IMG/VR virus record: IMGVR_UViG_3300032080_000005
Location: 1-63,647 of that record
Reading direction: 5' to 3' (one strand)
DNA length: 63,647 nt
DNA from: a virus
Lineage: Duplodnaviria; Caudoviricetes
Shown here piece after piece: positions 2,105 to 53,707 of the stretch. A program made the translations under genes and the position numbers. The first letter of the stretch is position 1. Every line of letters starts with the position of its first letter. The notes under the pieces were generated by a model that was given only the letters and a program-made list of their open reading frames with translations, searched no databases and was not told where the DNA came from.

Positions 2105-2399
2105 AACTGCTGTCTATCCACTCGTAGCCTTCAACAGCAGTACAACTGGCGCCCGCACATCTAACCGGATCGGGACCATAGTCCACTGGTATGCACATGC
2201 GGCACTGGGACCAGCTCACTATGAGGCGTCCAGCGGTGGAGAACATCCCGGCGGCTCAGGTCTAGAAATCCCTGCCCCGGCTACCACGTAGCCCGCCTCA
2301 CAACCAGTGTGGCAGCCGTGTCAAGTCCTACCCGGCCGCCCTCTCCAGGGTGACGTGGCCCGACGCCGCTGCTACCCCCTCCGGGGTCGCGAGGCGTCG

Positions 2400-3441: not shown

Positions 3442-3495
3442 ATGTCAAGCCGCCATATCGCACCCGACATCCATTGACAGGGCGCGGCTTGACAT
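3442..3495 (+). ncRNA. tigRNA-like guide unit 1
   Basis: 11-bp stem ATGTCAAGCCG/CGGCTTGACAT enclosing CCA-TATCGCACC-CG-ACAT-CCA-TTGACAGGG-CG. Confidence 0.85.
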
Positions 3496-3517
3496 GCGCT
3501 ATACATTGGTTTTGAGA

Positions 3518-10809: not shown

Positions 10810-11655
10810 GTGTCTGATTCAACCGCAGTAGAGGAGCGCGCACCAGGCGGAGAGGTAGCAGTTTCCGCCGAGCAGGAAGCCGCGCTCGCGAAGCGCGTCA
10901 AGGGCCAGGTGGACCGGAGCAAACTTCAGCTCCCGGCCATCAAGGTCGTCAACGGCCTGAGCAAGGAGGCGTCCGAGGGCGTCCCGCAGGGCACGCTGGT
11001 CAACTCGCTGACCGGGGAGCAGTACGGGGAGTCCGTGGAGGTCGTCATCAGCGACTTCTACTACGGGCGCTTCTACGCCCCGAAAGGCGGCGGCAAAGCC
11101 TACACCGCTCGCGGTGAGGTCGTGCCGGACAACTGGCCGGAGGAGTACGCCGGGCAGCGGTTCACCGAGCTGGACGACGCCGAGGAGCAGTGGAAACTCG
11201 CCGTCAACAACAACGAGCACCCCTGGGGATCGGGTCCGCCCATCCAGACGACGATTAACTTCGTCGTGACCCTCGCCGAGGCACCGGGCTACCCGCTGCG
11301 GCTCAGCATGAAGTCGAGCGATACCCCGACCGCCAACAAGGTGCTCCAGATGATCGACATGGCGCCCACGCCGTGGGCCTACGTCTACACGATCAGCTCC
11401 GATGGGCGTCAGACGCCCAACGGTTCCGGCACCTACTACGGCTTCAAGGCCGAGCAGGGCGGCACCGCGTCGGACGAGCAGCGCCAGGCGGCGGTGAAAA
11501 TCGCGCTGGCCTTCCAGAGCGCCATCGACTCCGGCGACGGGATCGAGGAGGCGGGCACGGACGACGCCGACGCGAAGTCGCAGGAGAAAGCCGCCAAACG
11601 GGCGAAGGCGGCTGCGAAAGCGAAGGACGACGAGGGGCTGGGGTCCGACATCTGA
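10810..11655 (+). CDS. putative ssDNA-binding/annealing protein
   Basis: Own promoter and AAGGAGGT RBS, acidic C-terminal tail, replication context. Confidence 0.55.
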   Translation: MSDSTAVEERAPGGEVAVSAEQEAALAKRVKGQVDRSKLQLPAIKVVNGLSKEASEGVPQGTLVNSLTGEQYGESVEVVISDFYYGRFYAPKGGGKAYTARGEVVPDNWPEEYAGQRFTELDDAEEQWKLAVNNNEHPWGSGPPIQTTINFVVTLAEAPGYPLRLSMKSSDTPTANKVLQMIDMAPTPWAYVYTISSDGRQTPNGSGTYYGFKAEQGGTASDEQRQAAVKIALAFQSAIDSGDGIEEAGTDDADAKSQEKAAKRAKAAAKAKDDEGLGSDI

Positions 11656-22015: not shown

Positions 22016-22152
22016 GGATGATGTGGAGCGAATTGCTTTGTCTGCTGCGCATTGCTCGCTGGGCGTTCCTAGCAGCTTGGGACGCACCCCGCGGGCCGTG
22101 GGTGCCTTGACGTGGACGATACGCTGAATATGCAGACGACGAAAGGAAACTG

Positions 22153-26284: not shown

Positions 26285-27519
26285 CGGACACTTATGCAAC
26301 GGGGACCGTCAAGGTCAGCGCGAACAACGGCGGCGCCCTCGCAGCGCAGGCTCTCGCCGGACAGTTCGGCGGGAAGTGGGGCAAGCGCGCCGTCACGGCG
26401 GCCGCGCTGGCGCAGATGGCTTGGCCTGCATACAAAACGGCGCGGGAGTGGTACCGCAACCGGAACGGCGACTACAAGCTGACGATCCACGGCGAAGACA
26501 TGATCTACGCCGACGTACACGCTTGGGTGCTGAAAGAAATGGCGGAGGAAGACCGTCGCTCCATGTCCGCCAGCACGGAAATCACTTACGACGCGGACGA
26601 CAACGAGATTCCGCACATCAAGCTCGGCTTCGACGGCAGCGTCGAACAGCAGATTACGGTCGCCGGGCACCCGGTGGTCGTGAAGGTCAGCCGGGAGCAG
26701 CTTCCCGACCGCATCAGTCTCTCGTCGGACAACTGGCGCCTGAGCATGGAGAAAATCCTGTTCACCACGGAGACGCTGGAGGCTCGGGCGGCCGTGGTCG
26801 AGGCGCTGGAAGCCGTCGCCACCGAGAAGTACAAGAGCGACGATCCGCCCGCGCTGATGATGCCGTCGCGTTGGGGCGGAGGCTGGCAGAAGCGTGCTGA
26901 CCTCCCGACCCGCGGCCTCGACTCCGTCATTCTGAAGGCAGGCCAGTTGGAGCGGCTGTCCGACGACCTGGGCGACTTTCTCGCCAGCGAGGATCGCTAC
27001 GTCAGGATGTCGCAGCCCTGGCACCGCGGCTACCTGCTGCACGGGCCTCCGGGGACCGGCAAGACGAGCCTGGCGCGCTCTCTCGCCACGGAGTACAACC
27101 TGCCGACGTACTACCTGCCCCTGGGCGACATCGCGAAAGACTCCGACCTGATGCAGCTCGTCGGCGGCATCAAGCCGCGGTCGGTCCTGCTGCTGGAGGA
27201 CGTGGACAGCTTCCACGCGGCCACCGACCGTAGCGACGAGAAGGACCACGCCTCCGTGGCGACGCTGCTGAACGCCCTCGACGGCGTCTGGACGCCCCAC
27301 GGCCTGATAACCATCATGACCACGAACAACAAGGAGGCGCTTGACCCCGCGCTGATTCGCGCCGGTCGCATCGACGTTGACGAGGAACTGAGCAATCTCG
27401 ACGAGGATCAGGCTGTCCGCCTCGCGGAGCGTTTGCGGCCGGGTGGATTGACGGACGCAGTATCCTTTGTAGGACAAGCACCATCTGAGCTGATCGAGCA
27501 CATCCGCAACAACACGTAA
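26281..27519 (+). CDS. BCS1-like AAA+ ATPase
   Basis: RGYLLHGPPGTGKTS, LLEDVD, LLNALDG, MTTN, DPALIRAGRID; R.LDSVIL preceding. Confidence 0.88.
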   Translation: MTDTYATGTVKVSANNGGALAAQALAGQFGGKWGKRAVTAAALAQMAWPAYKTAREWYRNRNGDYKLTIHGEDMIYADVHAWVLKEMAEEDRRSMSASTEITYDADDNEIPHIKLGFDGSVEQQITVAGHPVVVKVSREQLPDRISLSSDNWRLSMEKILFTTETLEARAAVVEALEAVATEKYKSDDPPALMMPSRWGGGWQKRADLPTRGLDSVILKAGQLERLSDDLGDFLASEDRYVRMSQPWHRGYLLHGPPGTGKTSLARSLATEYNLPTYYLPLGDIAKDSDLMQLVGGIKPRSVLLLEDVDSFHAATDRSDEKDHASVATLLNALDGVWTPHGLITIMTTNNKEALDPALIRAGRIDVDEELSNLDEDQAVRLAERLRPGGLTDAVSFVGQAPSELIEHIRNNT

Positions 27520-28292: not shown

Positions 28293-28591
28293 TTCGCGTC
28301 AAAGTCGAAATCGTCCCTCACGGCCGCGTTGATGCGTCGGAGGTTCTGCACGACATCTGGATCGAAAACGACGGAACCAGCATCGCTGGCGTCGGCCCGG
28401 ACGAGGGCGGGATCGGCAACTACAACATCTTTCCAGACGGCGAGACGCTGTCGCATCTTCACGTCGTGGACTACCCGAGCATCGTTCGGGAGTGGAACGA
28501 GCAAGTCAAGGCGGCCGAAGCCGAGCCGGGATTCGACCGCGCACGCGCGCCCGTCCCGCCGAAGATCGAGCGCGAGTTCGAGGTCGCGTGA
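28289..28591 (+). CDS. hypothetical protein
   Basis: GTGA overlap; IRVKVEIVPHG...I.NDGT motif. Confidence 0.65.
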   Translation: MIRVKVEIVPHGRVDASEVLHDIWIENDGTSIAGVGPDEGGIGNYNIFPDGETLSHLHVVDYPSIVREWNEQVKAAEAEPGFDRARAPVPPKIEREFEVA

Positions 28592-48654: not shown

Positions 48655-49257
48655 TCAGCGGAGCAGATGCGTTAGCAGAGAAGCATTATGCTTACCGCTA
48701 TTACATGACGGGCAAAGCCCCGCGAAGTTCTCCCAGCCATGTTCGCCACCCGTCGACAGTGCTTCAATGTGGTCAACGTGGATAGGACCATGAGCGCCAC
48801 AGAGTTCGCAGATGCCCTGACGCAGCATCTCCGCGAAGGCGGCCGCATCTACTGAGTCGCCCTGTGGGGCATTGGCTTTCAGGCCGCGATAGCGACTCGC
48901 CGCTGGGCGCTGATGCGCGCGATACTTCTCTGGATTCGCCGCGCGCCATGTATCGCGCCAGACCGCTGCTTGCTCAGGATTATCCCGATAGCGCGCCGCT
49001 GACCTGGCGGCAATCTTATCTGGATACCGCGCACGATAGCGCCGCTGACGAGCCTGCGCCGCCGCACGATTACGGCGATACTTTGCGCGATCATTCGCGC
49101 GGCATTTGTCGAGATTATTCTTCCGTCGCGCACGTTCTGCCAACCTTTCTCCACGGCGAACGCAAGCTCTACACACGCCACGGCGCCGCCCTGAATCAGT
49201 CCGCAAGGCAAAATCTTCAAGCGGCTTTTCCTCACCGCACTTTGAGCAGCGCTTCAT
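48655..49257 (-). CDS. HNH endonuclease
   Basis: KRCSKCGEEK..F, CRAC, CELCG..HVDHIEALSTGGEH..N...CPSCN..K. Confidence 0.9.
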   Translation of the reverse strand: MKRCSKCGEEKPLEDFALRTDSGRRRGVCRACVRRGERLAERARRKNNLDKCRANDRAKYRRNRAAAQARQRRYRARYPDKIAARSAARYRDNPEQAAVWRDTWRAANPEKYRAHQRPAASRYRGLKANAPQGDSVDAAAFAEMLRQGICELCGAHGPIHVDHIEALSTGGEHGWENFAGLCPSCNSGKHNASLLTHLLR

Positions 49258-49796
49258 TCGCCCCACGGCGTGACGTGAAGCTGCATCATCCAGAACCAGG
49301 CGTATTTCGGCCTGCCCTTCCGGTCGTGGTAGCGACCCCAGACCCACCCGTCATCGCAGTCGCCGATGACCTTGACCGGCTCGTCGGTGAACCAGAGAAT
49401 CACGCCGCGCGGATCGAGGCGTTGGGCCACAGGTGGACGGCGTCGCAGACGACGCACACCTTCAGCGGCTCGATGTTGTCGCGCGGTGGGGTGTCGGCGG
49501 CCGGTTCCGTATCTGGCGCCAGTGGCGTCATGATCTGAGCTTGACGGCGGCATTCAGCGCGGTTCACCTGTTTGCGGATGCGCGTACCGGACATGGCCGC
49601 GTTGGCGAAGTCCATCGTGACGCTGCGGTCGGCGTGCGCTTCCTTGATGGCACGGCCGCCGTTGAGGACGACGGTCTTCCCCAGCGCCTCGACCTCCGCG
49701 GGGCTGGGATTCGACACGACCGGCCACTCGTAGTCCTCGTGACTCCAATCGTCGTCCCAAAACAGCGTCTCCATGCGCCTCCCTTCAGTTCGTAAG

Positions 49797-49869
49797 TGGA
49801 CAAGGCGGGGTTCGAACCCGCGACCTCCTGCTTGCAAAACAGGCGCTCTGCCAACTGAGCTACTCGCCC
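49797..49869 (-). tRNA. tRNA-Ala(TGC)
   Basis: Canonical cloverleaf with G3:U70. Confidence 0.93.
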
Positions 49870-49946
49870 ACAACCAGTCTATCGCGAAGGTCAAGACGAC
49901 GAGTTAGTGCCACGGAGTGTCCCTAATCTGCATCCTTGACGCACGA

Positions 49947-50021
49947 ATCCGGGGGCAGGGTTCGAACCTGCACTTCGAGGTTCAGGGCCTCGCTGGCTGC
50001 CAGTTACCTTATCACCCCGGA
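49947..50021 (-). tRNA. tRNA-Gln(CTG), atypical D arm and C33
   Basis: U1-A72 acceptor, anticodon loop CCCTGAA, T arm GCAGG-TTCGAAC-CCTGC. Confidence 0.8.
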
Positions 50022-50022
50022 G

Positions 50023-50104
50023 TGGACGTGCCGGGAGTTGAACCCGGATCGCCGCCTGGCAGGGGTGTCCCTCGCTGTGCAGGCGGCCGTGACCTTTCAC
50101 GCCC
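50023..50104 (-). ncRNA. tmRNA tRNA-like-domain-only RNA (mini-tmRNA-like)
   Basis: GGGCGTG/CACGTCC-A with G3:U70, no D stem, helix GCCGCCTG/CAGGCGGC, 3-nt GAT linker, CCGGG-TTCAACT-CCCGG; promoter places +1 at about 50104. Confidence 0.65.
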
Positions 50105-50134
50105 ACGTCCAGTATAGAGGGAGCGTCAATCGAG

Positions 50135-50208
50135 CACCGCTGACGGGACTTGAACCCGCAAGGTCCGGCCTGAGAAACCGGCGGCTCTACCAATTCGCCT
50201 ACAGCGGC
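50135..50208 (-). tRNA. tRNA-Glu(CTC)
   Basis: Cloverleaf; anticodon loop TTCTCAG. Confidence 0.85.
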
Positions 50209-50221
50209 ACATCCAAGTATA

Positions 50222-50296
50222 TCGGGCGAGCGGGATTCGAACCCGCGGCCTCTCGGTCCCGAACCGAGCGCGCTGACCAGACTGCGCTACCGCCCA
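50222..50296 (-). tRNA. tRNA-Pro(CGG)
   Basis: Cloverleaf; anticodon loop TTCGGGA. Confidence 0.92.
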
Positions 50297-50297
50297 A

Positions 50298-50369
50298 CGC
50301 CGCACCTGGAGTTCGAGTCCAGAACCTCCCGGTCACAAGCCGAGGCTCTACCAATTGAGCTAGAGCGGC
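50298..50369 (-). tRNA. tRNA-Thr(TGT)-like, degenerate
   Basis: Anticodon loop CTTGTGA; T loop CTCGAAC, base 26 absent, U-U mismatch in acceptor. Confidence 0.6.
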
Positions 50370-50378
50370 GGGTTGAAG

Positions 50379-50534
50379 TTACCGCGAGGTAGGCTTGGCG
50401 CGGCGGTATGAGTCCACCCGCACTTTGCCTTTGCCGCGGTTCGCCCCGCGTGGGGACCGCGAATGCTTCTTGACGCCGACTGCGCTACCCGAGCCAGCCC
50501 GACGACGCCGCTTTCCGCGCCCCCGCGTCGCCAT
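50379..50534 (-). CDS. 51-aa highly basic peptide
   Basis: MATRGRGKRRRRAGSGSAVGVKKHSRSPRGANRGKGKVRVDSYRRAKPTSR (hand-translated); TGATG-coupled. Confidence 0.6.
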   Translation of the reverse strand: MATRGRGKRRRRAGSGSAVGVKKHSRSPRGANRGKGKVRVDSYRRAKPTSR

Positions 50535-50698
50535 CAGGCGGCCGCCGTGGTCTGCGGGCGAAAGCGCCGCGCGAAACCGAAAATCGTGTCGAGAACGTCA
50601 ATCACAGGGACAGCTTAGCATCAGTCGTCGCCGTTGGCGAGCCAATCCGCGTAGTAGTCCTCGTCATCTTCCGCCGCCTCGACGAACTCGTCGAACAC

Positions 50699-50963: not shown

Positions 50964-52373
50964 TCATGCCTCGACGACCTCGTCCAGGTTCGGGACGTTC
51001 TCGCCTTTCGGCGGACGGCCGCCGCCATCGCCGGGGAGCGGCCGGTCGGCGGTGCCGCCTTCCTTCGTGTTCGTGGGGTCGGGCATGTTGAGGACGGTTT
51101 CTTCGATCCGCTGTGCCTTCTTTTCGTCCTCCATTTCCTCGCGCAGAGGCTTCAGGTTGAACTGGCGCCGGACCTCCTTGACGAGGACGCCGGGGACGGC
51201 CGCGAATTCCCCACCGAGCTTGAACTGATCCTCGATGGGCATCTGGTATTCGTAGTCGATCTTCAGCTTCAGGCCGAAGTCGGCGGTGAGTTCTTTCGTC
51301 AGCAGCGTCTGGAGCGTGTTGAGGATCGGCCGCATCCGCTTGTTGTCGAAGTTGCGGCGTTCTTCGGCGGGCGTGGTGGTCGAGGAAGTTTCGTTGCCGA
51401 GGCCGAGCATCACCTTCGGGACACGGAACAGCGCCAGGATGCGGTCGCGGCTCTGGTCGGACATCAGCCCGAACTCGGCCTTCGTCGCGTCGGACTGGAT
51501 CGGCTTGTAGGTGAGGCCGCGGCCGAGGACGGCGACCTGGAACGCCTGCTTGGCGCCAGCGTAGATGCCAGCGAACTGGCGGCGCAGCTTCGCCGCGTTC
51601 GACTCGGAAATCGCCTGCTCGGCCTCCAGCACGCCCTCCAGGCGAGCGCCGTTTTCGTAGTAGGACGCCTTCGTCTCGGTAAGCGCAATCTCCCCGTCGA
51701 AGATGCGCGGACCCATCGCGATGATGCCCGCGCCGCGGTAGGAGTCGTGGGGGTTGGCGCCCTTCCAGTGAATGACCTTCTCGGGCGGAATCTCGACGGC
51801 GACCTTGCCGGGCGCCTTGTACTCGTAGTGCTTGACGAGTTCGCCCTTGTCGCCGGGGACGACCTCGACGTGCTGGGGCGGGAGCCGCAGAAGCTGGAGC
51901 GGCCGACCGCGGCCGTCATCCCCGCGCTTGTAGAGGAACCCGTCTCCGGTGATGTAGCGGTCGATGACGAAAAGTTCGATGACTTCTTCCCAGCTCTGGT
52001 AGCCGTTCGGTTCCTCCAGGAGCTGGACGAGCCAGGGGTCCGCAAGGCGGGCACCGGGTTCCGCCTCCGCGCGAGAGCGCGGGACGGTCTTGCCGTCGTA
52101 GTCCTCCAGGTGCCACTCGGCGTGGGCGGCCGTCTCGGCGATGACGCCCATGCAGTCGGCGACCCAATCCATCGCCTTGTCGGTGCCCGATCCGTAGGCT
52201 TCGAGCTGGCGCTTCGCGGAGGAGGCGGCGAAGCGGGAGCCGCTGGTGCGTCCCATGTGTGCGCCGTAGACCTCCGGCGCATCCTTGCGCGAGCCGGGGA
52301 TGACCGCGCGGCCCGGCGCAGCCTTCCCTTCTAGAGAGAGCGCGCCGAGGAAGGTGGAGAGGGGGTTCGCCAT
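50964..52373 (-). CDS. HK97-family portal protein
   Basis: LLEEPNGYQS, GDGF, EKVIHWK..NP....RG, YYENGA..GVL, LFRVP..MLG. Confidence 0.94.
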   Translation of the reverse strand: MANPLSTFLGALSLEGKAAPGRAVIPGSRKDAPEVYGAHMGRTSGSRFAASSAKRQLEAYGSGTDKAMDWVADCMGVIAETAAHAEWHLEDYDGKTVPRSRAEAEPGARLADPWLVQLLEEPNGYQSWEEVIELFVIDRYITGDGFLYKRGDDGRGRPLQLLRLPPQHVEVVPGDKGELVKHYEYKAPGKVAVEIPPEKVIHWKGANPHDSYRGAGIIAMGPRIFDGEIALTETKASYYENGARLEGVLEAEQAISESNAAKLRRQFAGIYAGAKQAFQVAVLGRGLTYKPIQSDATKAEFGLMSDQSRDRILALFRVPKVMLGLGNETSSTTTPAEERRNFDNKRMRPILNTLQTLLTKELTADFGLKLKIDYEYQMPIEDQFKLGGEFAAVPGVLVKEVRRQFNLKPLREEMEDEKKAQRIEETVLNMPDPTNTKEGGTADRPLPGDGGGRPPKGENVPNLDEVVEA

Positions 52374-53532: not shown

Positions 53533-53621
53533 AGCGCCAGACCAGGGGTCGAACCTGGACCGCCAGCGCCCCCGATCCCGCTTTGAGGCGTCGGCTCTCT
53601 ACCAGTTGAGTTACCTGGCGC
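53533..53621 (-). ncRNA. tRNA-like RNA with aberrant anticodon arm
   Basis: Recognisable D and T arms, 7-8 bp acceptor, bulged arm CCGA-CGC-CTCAAA-GCG-GGA-TCGG, 13-nt variable region. Confidence 0.65.
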
Positions 53622-53627
53622 GGTGAG

Positions 53628-53707
53628 TAGCGGGGGCGGGATTCGAACCCGCGTCTCCAGGTTATGAGCCTGACAAGGTGGCTTGCGCCCCACTCCTCCA
53701 CCCCGCT
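53628..53707 (-). tRNA. initiator-like tRNA-Met(CAT) with enlarged D loop
   Basis: AGCGGGGTGGAG...GGCTCATAACC...GGTTCGAATCCCGCCCCCGCTA. Confidence 0.85.

What the first reader, a model, noticed from the sequence alone, without database searches (positions are those of the whole stretch)
50023..50129. Tag-less mini-tmRNA: alanyl tRNA-like domain without an mRNA domain
Seen: an 82-nt minus-strand RNA with a G3:U70 acceptor stem and A73, an unpaired AAAGGUCAC segment in place of a D stem, a 3-nt GAU linker and a GGGUUCAACUCCC T arm. These are features of the tmRNA tRNA-like domain. The 8-bp helix that would lead to pseudoknots and the tag ORF is instead closed by only 21 nt. A promoter (TTGAC-N8-TATACT, 50111-50129) puts +1 at or next to G1. 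Inference: an SmpB/AlaRS-binding decoy that inhibits trans-translation, or an RNA that adds Ala without tagging.
Basis: partly seen in the sequence, partly recalled or inferred. Interest (0 to 1): 0.75.

Follow-up and report, generated by a model that had tools for sequence, protein, structure and literature searches.

The report
Phage tag-less mini-tmRNA (tRNA-like domain only)
This soil phage carries an 82-nucleotide RNA gene that is just the alanine-accepting, tRNA-like end of the bacterial ribosome-rescue RNA (tmRNA) without its tag-coding part; one such phage RNA was described in 2009, and relatives turn out to be common and unannotated in phage DNA.

Summary
All six portal-linked relatives keep that fold with compensatory changes, G3:U70 and A73. 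The rival register (5' end at 50110, D stem) is not conserved. The general tRNA model does not match it. It is the contig's best match to the tmRNA model, at 27.3 bits, below the 47-bit threshold.

The kind is already known: mycobacteriophage DS6A carries a "TLD only" tmRNA, and a similar molecule inhibited tmRNA in E. coli, "perhaps acting by titrating SmpB". My model finds the DS6A gene.

What I did not find in print is the breadth. ARAGORN of 127 and 2 of 120 of them. Cultured Streptomyces and Pontimonas phages carry unannotated copies.

Best reading: an alanine-chargeable SmpB-binding mimic that blocks or rewires trans-translation during infection. Function is inferred, not shown. Verdict: real, a new and divergent member of a known kind, interest moderate.

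The parts
50023..50104 (-). TLD-only (tag-less) tmRNA-like RNA gene, 82 nt, G1 = 50104, discriminator A = 50023
   Evidence: Sequence. MFE fold. CM R2, built without this clade, scores it 57.5 bits. RF00023 scores it 27.3 bits. No RF00005 match.
50098..50104 (-). Acceptor stem 5' strand GGGCGUG. It pairs with 50024-50030 (CACGUCC), giving G3:U70.
   Evidence: 42 of 42 cells paired in 6 relatives, with 2 pairs showing compensatory changes.
50088..50097 (-). Unpaired D-loop analogue AAAGGUCAC(G) with no D stem. AGG is invariant in the 6 relatives.
   Evidence: The alternative D stem is only 62.5% paired.
50051..50087 (-). Central hairpin in the place of tmRNA helix 2. An 8-bp helix (50080-50087 with 50051-50058) is closed by 21 nt (50059-50079) that can pair further. 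There is no tag frame and no pseudoknot.
   Evidence: The base of the helix covaries. Length and sequence of the apical part differ among the relatives, which are 64-84 nt overall.
50048..50050 (-). 3-nt linker GAU between the central helix and the T arm
   Evidence: A 3-nt linker occurs in 48 of 90 family members. 75 of 90 have AC before the T stem, and the window has AU.
50031..50047 (-). T arm CCGGG-UUCAACU-CCCGG
   Evidence: 30 of 30 cells paired in 6 relatives, with 4 of 5 pairs showing compensatory changes.
50111..50129 (-). Promoter-like motif TTGAC-N8-TATACT, followed by the 6-nt GGACGU (50105-50110) and then G1
   Evidence: Exact match, with 8 sites against 0.44 expected in the window. 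TTGAC or TTTAC plus a TANNNT-like hexamer is seen before the element in 5 of 6 relatives. Not sigma-70 spacing.
49948..50021 (-). tRNA-Gln(CUG) abutting the element with a 1-nt spacer (C at 50022). Its 5' processing would make the element's 3' end.
   Evidence: Rfam tRNA 31.4 bits. ARAGORN calls it at the lowered threshold. The adjacency is conserved in relatives.

Best explanation
The element is a phage gene for a TLD-only tmRNA: the tRNA-like domain of transfer-messenger RNA with helix 2 capped by a short hairpin in place of the pseudoknots and tag reading frame.

Proposed working (all steps inferred unless marked):
1. It is transcribed within the tRNA mini-array, either from the conserved TTGAC-N8-TAYACT motif that places +1 near G1, or by read-through.
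2. Its 5' end is set by initiation or RNase P at G1. Its 3' end is set by RNase P cutting the abutting tRNA-Gln, and the host CCA-adding enzyme completes the CCA, which is not encoded.
3. Host AlaRS can charge it because of G3:U70 and A73. The presence and conservation of these features are shown; charging is not.
4. It binds host SmpB (and EF-Tu if charged) as tmRNA does. Having no message to offer, it competes with host tmRNA and suppresses ssrA tagging and the associated decay of stalled products during infection.

I put about 0.85 on the identity (TLD-only tmRNA-like RNA). I put about 0.45 on SmpB titration, that is inhibition of trans-translation, being the main function.
For: Anatomy and conservation.

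Not a tRNA: RF00005 gives 12 matches in the window, none on the element. ARAGORN at default misses it.

tmRNA likeness:
- RF00023 aligns it end to end at 27.3 bits, the best hit of the contig. The same holds in 4 of 5 records tested.
- RNAs harvested with a pattern derived from this clade are matched by RF00023 in 7 of 9 loci tested: 60.9, 51.6, 47.4, 46.4, 36.0, 26.5 and 25.5 bits, with about 304 interior model positions deleted.
- The published DS6A TLD-only gene is found by my models at L128:28479-28557 (31.6 and 34.5 bits). It shares the inner CCG-CACG-CGG hairpin with many metagenomic members.

G3:U70 is selected:
- The same pattern with C70 gives 14 loci, 10 of 15 matches being ordinary tRNAs, against at least 120 (capped) with U70.
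- Members found by BLAST or by portal synteny, not by the pattern, keep G3:U70 and A73.

Family-wide structure: 99.6% of 768 cells paired, covariation score 0.56 against 0.13 in shuffles. In 80 of 90 members a single helix closes the central domain.

Function, from passages read:
[quoted passage not shown] - PMC3985003: G3:U70 is the AlaRS determinant, and the deformed D arm is the SmpB contact.
Against: The RF00023 score (27.3 bits) is below the gathering score (47). It is only about 5 bits above the phage's ordinary tRNAs.

In one relative's record (that of L002), the tmRNA model's best hit is the tRNA-Ala and the element is not matched.

The window's copy lacks the UUCGAC...GGAC signature at the base of helix 2. 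It has GAU where 75 of 90 members have NAC, so SmpB binding is less certain for this copy.

The high R2 score is partly circular. The training members were harvested with a pattern derived from this clade, which fixes about 22 positions.

The acceptor stem (GGGC...GUCCA) resembles that of the phage's own tRNA-Ala, so descent from tRNA-Ala by loss of the D arm cannot be excluded.

There is no expression, charging or binding data. The window encodes no SmpB, and the contig is only 54% complete. The primary paper (Mao 2009) is not held; I rely on two secondary descriptions.
Confidence: 0.5

Rival explanations
1. Tag-free ribosome rescue. The alanyl-TLD with SmpB and EF-Tu enters stalled ribosomes and accepts the nascent chain, adding one Ala. 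With no resume codon, the product is released by drop-off with Pth, or by ArfB-like factors. Ribosomes are freed without marking phage proteins for ClpXP degradation.
For: It has the same features as the best explanation: G3:U70 and A73 are strictly kept, which a pure SmpB sponge would not obviously need. CCA is encoded after the discriminator in 43 of 90 canonical-type members. CDS-less tmRNAs persist together with SmpB in mitochondria, and the 2025 database paper argues they still help with incomplete mRNAs. The gene lies in tRNA arrays or next to head genes in several phages, which suggests late, translation-linked use.
Against: The published test reports inhibition of tmRNA regardless of chargeability. 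No release mechanism for a peptidyl-TLD is known. PMC3985003 states that forms without a tag argue against a bacterial type of trans-translation. Nothing here tests ribosome entry.
Confidence: 0.2
2. A D-arm-less derivative of tRNA-Ala with another job. It could be a decoy for host tRNA-targeting defence nucleases or for AlaRS, an alanine donor for a non-ribosomal transferase, or an RNase P processing or stability signal within the transcript.
For: The acceptor stem resembles the phage's tRNA-Ala, and both are preceded by the same motif at the same distance. The pattern also finds 65-68-nt D-arm-less RNAs with anticodon-like 7-nt loops in cellular MAG contigs, so the harvested set is heterogeneous. 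In 9 of 64 representative loci the element starts 8-48 nt after an upstream ORF of one protein family on the same strand; the gap is 8-9 nt in 7 of them. That fits a role at an mRNA 3' end.
Against: The tRNA model does not match it at all, whereas the tmRNA model does. The central loop is not conserved among the 6 relatives. Many family members carry tmRNA-specific UUCGAC...GGAC and pass RF00023's threshold. 108 of 127 elements have no other tRNA within 300 nt.
Confidence: 0.12
3. A tRNA gene interrupted by a short insert or intron. ARAGORN with introns allowed and a lowered threshold reads tRNA-Gly(GCC) with a 20-nt intron, using the 5' register at 50110 and a D stem.
For. In this one sequence GGACGUG also pairs perfectly with CACGUCC, a CGUG/CACG D stem can be drawn, and CCUG direct repeats flank the 20 nt.
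Against: Across 6 relatives that acceptor register is 78.6% paired and the D stem 62.5%, against 100% for the other register. No CU-GCC-AG loop or insert boundary is conserved. The call appears only at -ps90. The discriminator A and the 1-3 base pairs are not those recalled for bacterial tRNA-Gly (recalled, not tested).
Confidence: 0.02
4. A decaying pseudogene, or an attP-type fragment of the host tmRNA gene with no RNA function.
For: Phages often integrate into tmRNA genes and carry the 3' end of the gene (passage in PMC10865867).
Against: Both halves of the acceptor stem are present and covary. There is no integrase in the window. None appears among the 25 of 28 Pfam families listed for 120 flanking ORFs. 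DS6A integrates at a tRNA-Lys site, not at tmRNA.
Confidence: 0.04

Closest known systems
Mycobacteriophage DS6A 'TLD only' tmRNA (Mao et al. 2009, RNA Biol 6:355, not held; described in PMC4131195 and PMC11915505)
   Same: Both are phage-encoded RNAs of about 80 nt. Shared features are a 7-bp acceptor stem with G3:U70 and A73, an unpaired D-loop analogue with GG, a short helix 2 capped by a hairpin, a canonical T arm and no tag frame. My models built from the metagenomic family find the DS6A gene at JN698994 28479-28557. It is not annotated in the record.
   Different: DS6A has the canonical GGGG...CUCCA ends, GGUCGAC and GCAC at the base of helix 2, and the inner CCG-CACG-CGG hairpin. The window's copy has GGGC...GUCCA, no UCGAC/GGAC, a GAU linker and a different apical hairpin. 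DS6A's gene lies between gp33 and a DNA polymerase III gene. The window's lies in a tRNA array between the portal and head protease genes. The two phages are unrelated by portal (one search shows no DS6A hit).
Bacterial tmRNA (Rfam RF00023), tRNA-like domain
   Same: Acceptor stem with G3:U70, no D stem, helix 2 leaving where a long variable arm would, and a T arm. RF00023 aligns the element from model position 1 to 374.
   Different: About 300 nt are missing: pseudoknots, resume codon, tag frame and stop. The score of 27.3 bits is below the 47-bit threshold. CCA is not encoded.
CDS-less organellar tmRNAs (jakobid and oomycete mitochondria, RF02544; two ~65-bp plastid genes)
   Same: They are reduced to little more than the TLD and have no tag frame. 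Their function without a message is an open question.
   Different: RF02544 gives no match at E<=10 in the window or in 4 relatives. They are organellar and AT-rich, some are two-piece, and they are retained with an imported SmpB rather than used by a parasite against a host.
tRNA-Ala and alanine minihelices
   Same: G3:U70 and A73. The acceptor stem is similar to the phage's own tRNA-Ala(UGC) at 49796-49869.
   Different: There is no D stem and no anticodon arm, and RF00005 does not match it.

Membership tests
TLD-only (CDS-less) tmRNA, phage DS6A type | 7-bp acceptor stem with G3:U70 and discriminator A | tested here: met
   Kept in 6 of 6 portal-linked relatives. Kept in the DS6A, LuckySocke and phiPsal1 copies, which were found without the pattern.
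TLD-only (CDS-less) tmRNA, phage DS6A type | No D stem; a single-stranded D-loop analogue with conserved GG | tested here: met
   10 nt are unpaired in the MFE fold. AGG is invariant in 6 of 6. The candidate D stem is 62.5% paired.
TLD-only (CDS-less) tmRNA, phage DS6A type | A helix-2-like stem between the D-loop analogue and the T arm, capped by a short hairpin; no pseudoknots, resume codon or tag frame | tested here: met
   An 8-bp helix closed by 21 nt. The base of the helix covaries. 80 of 90 family members are closed by one helix. ARAGORN's tmRNA search at default finds no tag.
TLD-only (CDS-less) tmRNA, phage DS6A type | Sequence and structure similarity to the published DS6A gene | tested here: inconclusive
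   Models trained on the family hit both the window (57.5 bits) and DS6A (34.5 bits, E 2.3e-5). The training set was harvested with a window-derived pattern. There is no direct pairwise similarity beyond the T arm and the shared architecture.
tmRNA (Rfam RF00023) | Score at or above the curated gathering threshold (47 bits) | tested here: not met
   27.3 bits over model positions 1-374, at window 50020-50104. Other family members reach 47.4-60.9 bits.
tmRNA (Rfam RF00023) | UUCGAC ... GGAC motif (tandem G-A pairs) at the base of helix 2 | tested here: not met
   The window has GGUCACGG ... GGCGAU. The motif is present in 22 of 90 (AGG-xx-TCGA) and 24 of 90 (GAC linker) family members.
tmRNA (Rfam RF00023) | mRNA-like domain with resume codon, tag frame and stop | tested here: not met
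   Only 21 nt close helix 2.
tmRNA / TLD-only tmRNA | Binding by SmpB; alanylation by AlaRS; EF-Tu delivery | not testable with these tools
   No biochemical data. No SmpB gene in the window.
tRNA (Rfam RF00005) | Cloverleaf matched by the general tRNA model at 29 bits or more | tested here: not met
   12 matches at E<=10 in the window, none overlapping 50023-50104. ARAGORN at default gives none.
Mitochondrial tmRNA (Rfam RF02544) | Match to the family model | tested here: not met
   0 of 5 records have a match at E<=10.

The most novel reading that the evidence does not exclude
TLD-only tmRNAs may not be a one-phage curiosity. They may be a large, overlooked class of phage-encoded RNAs: hundreds of viral contigs from 29% to 70% G+C, plus several cultured actinophages. 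They are invisible to standard tRNA/tmRNA finders and often sit in tRNA arrays or between head-protease and capsid genes. On this reading they reprogram host ribosome rescue in late infection. They would not merely sponge SmpB but act as alanine-charged, tag-free rescue factors that free stalled ribosomes while sparing phage proteins from ssrA-directed proteolysis.
Probability: 0.25. Interest if true: 0.75.

Novelty: new member of a known kind. Interest (0 to 1): 0.5.

Why it matters
[quoted passage not shown] A natural, compact RNA that phages use to interfere with it or bypass it would show how viruses handle host quality control of translation. It would also give a minimal ligand for SmpB.

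What tmRNAs without a message do is an open question for mitochondria, plastids and phage DS6A. A large family with members in cultured, non-pathogenic systems (Streptomyces phages, a Pontimonas phage) makes that question testable.

Practically, these genes are missed by ARAGORN. They are left unannotated, or annotated as a hypothetical protein, in deposited phage genomes. Phage annotation pipelines therefore undercount them.

Tried and rejected
- Exact 29-nt search of viral contigs: 0 hits.
- Megablast and blastn of the array or the element against cultured phages: only ordinary tRNA matches, or none.
- Rfam at gathering thresholds: nothing on the element. In E-value mode the kept clan hit was tRNA-Sec at 21.5 bits.
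- RF02544 mt-tmRNA: no match.
- ARAGORN intron reading, tRNA-Gly(GCC) with a 20-nt intron: rejected on comparative grounds.
- Alternative register with a D stem: rejected.
- attP or integrase idea: no integrase in the window, and none among the listed neighbour families (only the first 25 of 28 and 25 of 92 families were shown).
- Fixed-column covariation of helix 2 across 58 members gave only 56.6% pairing, because MAFFT does not keep the register. Per-sequence folding was used instead.
- Neighbour family phrog_8424 (9 of 64 loci): no Pfam or PDB sequence match. The AlphaFold model (pLDDT 77) is mostly helical and matches only uncharacterised phage proteins in BFVD. No function was assigned.
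- Host: the portal's nearest cultured phages are about 26% identical, so the host is unknown.
- Sequencing runs: no RNA holder listed.
- Mao et al. 2009: not held.
The tmRNA database tables behind PMC4131195 and PMC11915505 may list further phage TLD-only entries that I could not see.

Full report
**Where it lies.** The window is a whole IMG/VR viral contig of 63,647 bases, rated 54% complete. The finding lies on the minus strand in a small tRNA array, between the portal gene (50964-52373) and the HNH endonuclease, prohead protease and HK97-type capsid genes. The order on the minus strand is:
- tRNA-Thr, tRNA-Pro, tRNA-Glu
- the element (50104-50023)
- tRNA-Gln(CUG) (50021-49948)
- tRNA-Ala(UGC)

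The 82-nt RNA reads as follows:
- GGGCGUG
- AAAGGUCAC(G)
- GCCGCCUG, then 21 nt, then CAGGCGGC
- GAU
- CCGGG-UUCAACU-CCCGG
- CACGUCC-A

In this one sequence a second register is possible. GGACGUG from 50110 also pairs with CACGUCC, and a CGUG/CACG D stem can be drawn. ARAGORN with introns allowed and a lowered threshold turns that into tRNA-Gly(GCC) with a 20-nt intron.

**Relatives found through the portal protein.** A portal search in viral contigs gave six loci at 77-83% identity. All carry a homologous element, and L004's copy repeats L003's sequence. In L002, L005, L006 and L007 it lies directly 5' of a called tRNA-Gln. In L003 the 12 nt after the element are identical to the window's.

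Counts over the six distinct sequences:

| Register | Acceptor stem paired | Other helix |
|---|---|---|
| Rival (5' end at 50110) | 78.6% | D stem 62.5% |

Six of 12 pairs changed on both sides, for example GGGCGUG/CACGUCC, GGGCCUG/CAGGUCC, GGGCGCG/CGCGUCC and GGGCUAG/CUAGUCC.
- G3:U70 and A73 are kept in 6 of 6.
- RNAalifold returns the same consensus plus four covarying pairs at the base of the central helix.
- The apical part of the central hairpin differs in sequence and length; the whole elements are 64 to 84 nt. So there is no conserved anticodon loop or splice boundary.

**Model tests.**
- RF00005 (tRNA) gives 12 matches at E<=10 in the window, none on the element.
- RF00023 (tmRNA) aligns the element from model position 1 to 374 at 27.3 bits. 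That is the best tmRNA-model hit of the contig (own tRNAs 22.8 or less) but below the 47-bit threshold.
- The element is also the top tmRNA-model hit in three of the four relatives' records (31.5, 32.4 and 28.1 bits). In the record of L002 the top hit is the tRNA-Ala and the element is not matched.
- RF02544 (mitochondrial tmRNA) matches nothing.

**A large family.** I wrote a pattern from the clade alignment: GGGC-NN-G-NN-AGG, 25-55 nt, GTTCRA-N-TC-NNNN-C-NN-GTCCA.
- Together with the window and the portal loci this makes 127 loci and 90 distinct sequences of 62-88 nt. The loci range from 30 to 70% G+C.
- The positions the pattern leaves free covary almost perfectly. On 64 representatives below 80% identity, 99.6% of 768 cells pair. 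All six free pairs show compensatory changes. The covariation score is 0.56 against 0.13 in shuffles.
- In constrained folds, 80 of 90 have the central domain closed by one helix. 59 of 90 have a 9-11-nt unpaired 5' segment. 48 of 90 have a 3-nt linker.
- ARAGORN calls only 10 of the 127, as odd tRNA-Val, tRNA-Ile or tRNA-Leu, and once as tmRNA. Only 19 of 127 have another tRNA within 300 nt. Most are therefore stand-alone genes.

*Control for G3:U70.* The same pattern with C at position 70 gives 14 loci. Ten of the 15 matches are ordinary tRNAs that the pattern straddles. G3:U70 is thus strongly preferred.

*Independent pattern.* A second pattern uses canonical tmRNA ends: GGGG-NN-G-NNNN-GG-N-TTCGA, 20-50 nt, and a T arm ending CTCCA. 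It gives 90 distinct sequences of 61-87 nt. The T stem pairs in 90 of 90 at all five positions. CCA is encoded in 43 of 90. ARAGORN of 120.

**Link to tmRNA and to the literature.**
- In 7 of 9 family loci scanned in E-value mode, RF00023 matches the element end to end with about 304 interior positions deleted. Three reach the gathering score or more: 60.9, 51.6 and 47.4 bits. The others score 46.4, 36.0, 26.5 and 25.5. Of the other two, one had a weak permuted-tmRNA hit and one had none.
- Many members carry GGAAGGUUUCGAC...GGAC and an inner CCG-CNNG-CGG hairpin.
- The kind is in print. Hudson, Lau and Williams 2014 (PMC4131195, passages read) list 'Mycobacterium phage DS6A (TLD only)'. [quoted passage not shown]
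- The 2025 tmRNA database paper (PMC11915505, passages read) repeats this. It also lists CDS-less forms in mitochondria and two plastids.
- I fetched the DS6A record, which annotates no RNA there. My models find the gene at 28479-28557 (31.6 and 34.5 bits). It has the same architecture and the same inner hairpin.
- A model built without the window's clade scores the window's element at 57.5 bits, against 30.2 for the phage's own tRNA-Ala. This is partly circular, because the training set came from a window-derived pattern.

**Cultured phages.** blastn with a canonical member finds full-length, unannotated copies:
- Streptomyces phages pSt2308 and LuckySocke
- Streptomyces phage GiJojo, where the region is annotated as a hypothetical protein
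- Pontimonas phage phiPsal1
- Streptomyces phage Alone3, with 81% coverage

In LuckySocke the copy lies in a tRNA array. In phiPsal1 it lies between the prohead protease and the major capsid gene. Both keep G3:U70 and A73, although they were not selected by the pattern. The window's own element has no blastn match among cultured phages. The portal's nearest cultured relatives are about 26% identical, so the host is unknown.

**Gene context.** I took 120 ORFs flanking 64 representatives.
- The commonest named neighbours are head genes. Pfam gives Phage_capsid 5, Peptidase_S78 2 and portal families 2. PHROG major-head family phrog_10 has 7.
- An unknown pair recurs: phrog_8424 in 9 loci, ending 8-48 nt before the element (8-9 nt in 7 of them), and phrog_7813 in 8 loci, downstream.
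- This is recurrent, not universal. I did not compute a null expectation.
- No integrase appears in the window or among the listed neighbour families. DS6A integrates at a tRNA-Lys site. The attP-fragment idea is therefore weak.
- No SmpB gene is in the window.

**Promoter.** TTGAC-N8-TATACT is exact at 50129-50111. Its spacing is not that of sigma-70, and the consensus scan found none in 49600-50600.
- The motif occurs 8 times with at most 1 mismatch in the window, against 0.44 expected.
- It stands 6 nt before G1 of both this RNA and tRNA-Ala. A similar site precedes the odd tRNA at 53627-53707.
- TTGAC or TTTAC plus a TANNNT-like hexamer is seen before the element in 5 of 6 relatives.
- I read it as a phage-specific promoter-like signal. 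The +1 at G1 is inference.

**Mechanism.**
- *Shown:* the anatomy, its conservation, the selection on G3:U70 and A73, and the homology to the tmRNA TLD at family level.
- *From established knowledge:* G3:U70 is the AlaRS determinant, and the deformed D arm is the SmpB contact (PMC3985003, passage).
- *Inferred:* maturation by RNase P at G1 and at the abutting tRNA-Gln, CCA addition, alanylation, SmpB binding, and competition with host tmRNA.
- The published E. coli result for a similar molecule makes SmpB titration the leading function. The strict retention of the alanine determinants, and of encoded CCA in many members, keeps tag-free Ala-only rescue alive as the main rival.

**Verdict.** The feature is real and was read correctly by the first stage, but its kind has been known since 2009. 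What appears unreported is how common and unannotated these genes are in phages. Searches gave listings and abstracts only, beyond the passages cited. Supplements were not seen.

Noticed in passing
window 2306-2324(-), 3489-3507(+), 11189-11207(-), 22107-22125(+), 27448-27466(+), 28491-28509(-), 49876-49894(-), 50111-50129(-): The motif TTGAC-N8-TAYACT recurs 8 times with at most 1 mismatch, against 0.44 expected. Several sites are followed by GG(U/A)NGU and a transcript start candidate. The hexamer spacing is about one helical turn shorter than in sigma-70 promoters. It may be a phage-specific promoter.
   Followed up: partly
window 53533-53621 and 53627-53707 (-): Two odd tRNA-like genes lie in the second array. 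One is an 89-nt 'tRNA-Phe(aaa)'. The other is 81 nt: ARAGORN calls it tRNA-Gln(ttg), and Rfam matches only 53628-53694 at 38 bits. It has a CUCAUAA loop, an enlarged D region, and a TTGAC-N8-TACGAT site just upstream.
   Followed up: no
window 49948-50021 (-): tRNA-Gln(CUG) with a U1:A72 pair is missed by ARAGORN at default and barely passes Rfam (31.4 bits). It starts 1 nt after the element's discriminator base, and this tandem is conserved in the relatives.
   Followed up: partly
window 48655-49347 (-): An HNH endonuclease gene sits between the tRNA array and the prohead protease gene, inside the head-gene module.
   Followed up: no
L152-L250 (genome/MAG contigs), e.g. L153:3251-3318, L155:2505-2572, L163:7045-7111: 63 of the 99 pattern hits in bacterial and archaeal genome or MAG contigs are a distinct 65-68-nt class. 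The contigs come from Planctomycetota, Patescibacteria, Gammaproteobacteria and some archaeal bins. Features: G3:U70, no D arm, and a short arm with a 7-nt anticodon-like loop (CUUAUAA, CUGAUAA, CUAAGAA). Flanks often extend the acceptor helix through the discriminator base. Some genomes have 2 copies. RF00023 gives them 25-35 bits. I do not know what they are.
   Followed up: partly
L131:3293-3377, L132:6614-6697, L138:5305-5389, L139:12163-12247, L141:9057-9141, L135:9734-9799: These are D-arm-less tRNA-like RNAs of 66-85 nt with G3:C70 instead of G3:U70 and an encoded CCA, on a few related viral contigs. An 84-nt U70 relative lies on an Arthrobacter contig (L169). They may be a non-alanine variant of the same architecture.
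   Followed up: no
L084:1230-1647 (-): A GOLLD RNA match (149.7 bits, gathering score 150) lies about 300 nt from that contig's TLD-only gene (L084:1956-2032).
   Followed up: no
L182:1254-1320 and L182:2981-3051: Two different TLD-like elements lie on one 4-kb contig. One is the 67-nt class. The other scores 45.3 bits with RF00023.
   Followed up: no
L012:2937-4142 / L012:4362-4829 and 7-8 other loci (L014, L050, L055, L068, L073, L093, L114, L123): A conserved gene pair of unknown function brackets the TLD-only gene. phrog_8424 is mostly helical by AlphaFold (pLDDT 77) and ends 8-48 nt before the RNA (8-9 nt in 7 of 9 loci). phrog_7813 starts 28-131 nt after it.
   Followed up: partly
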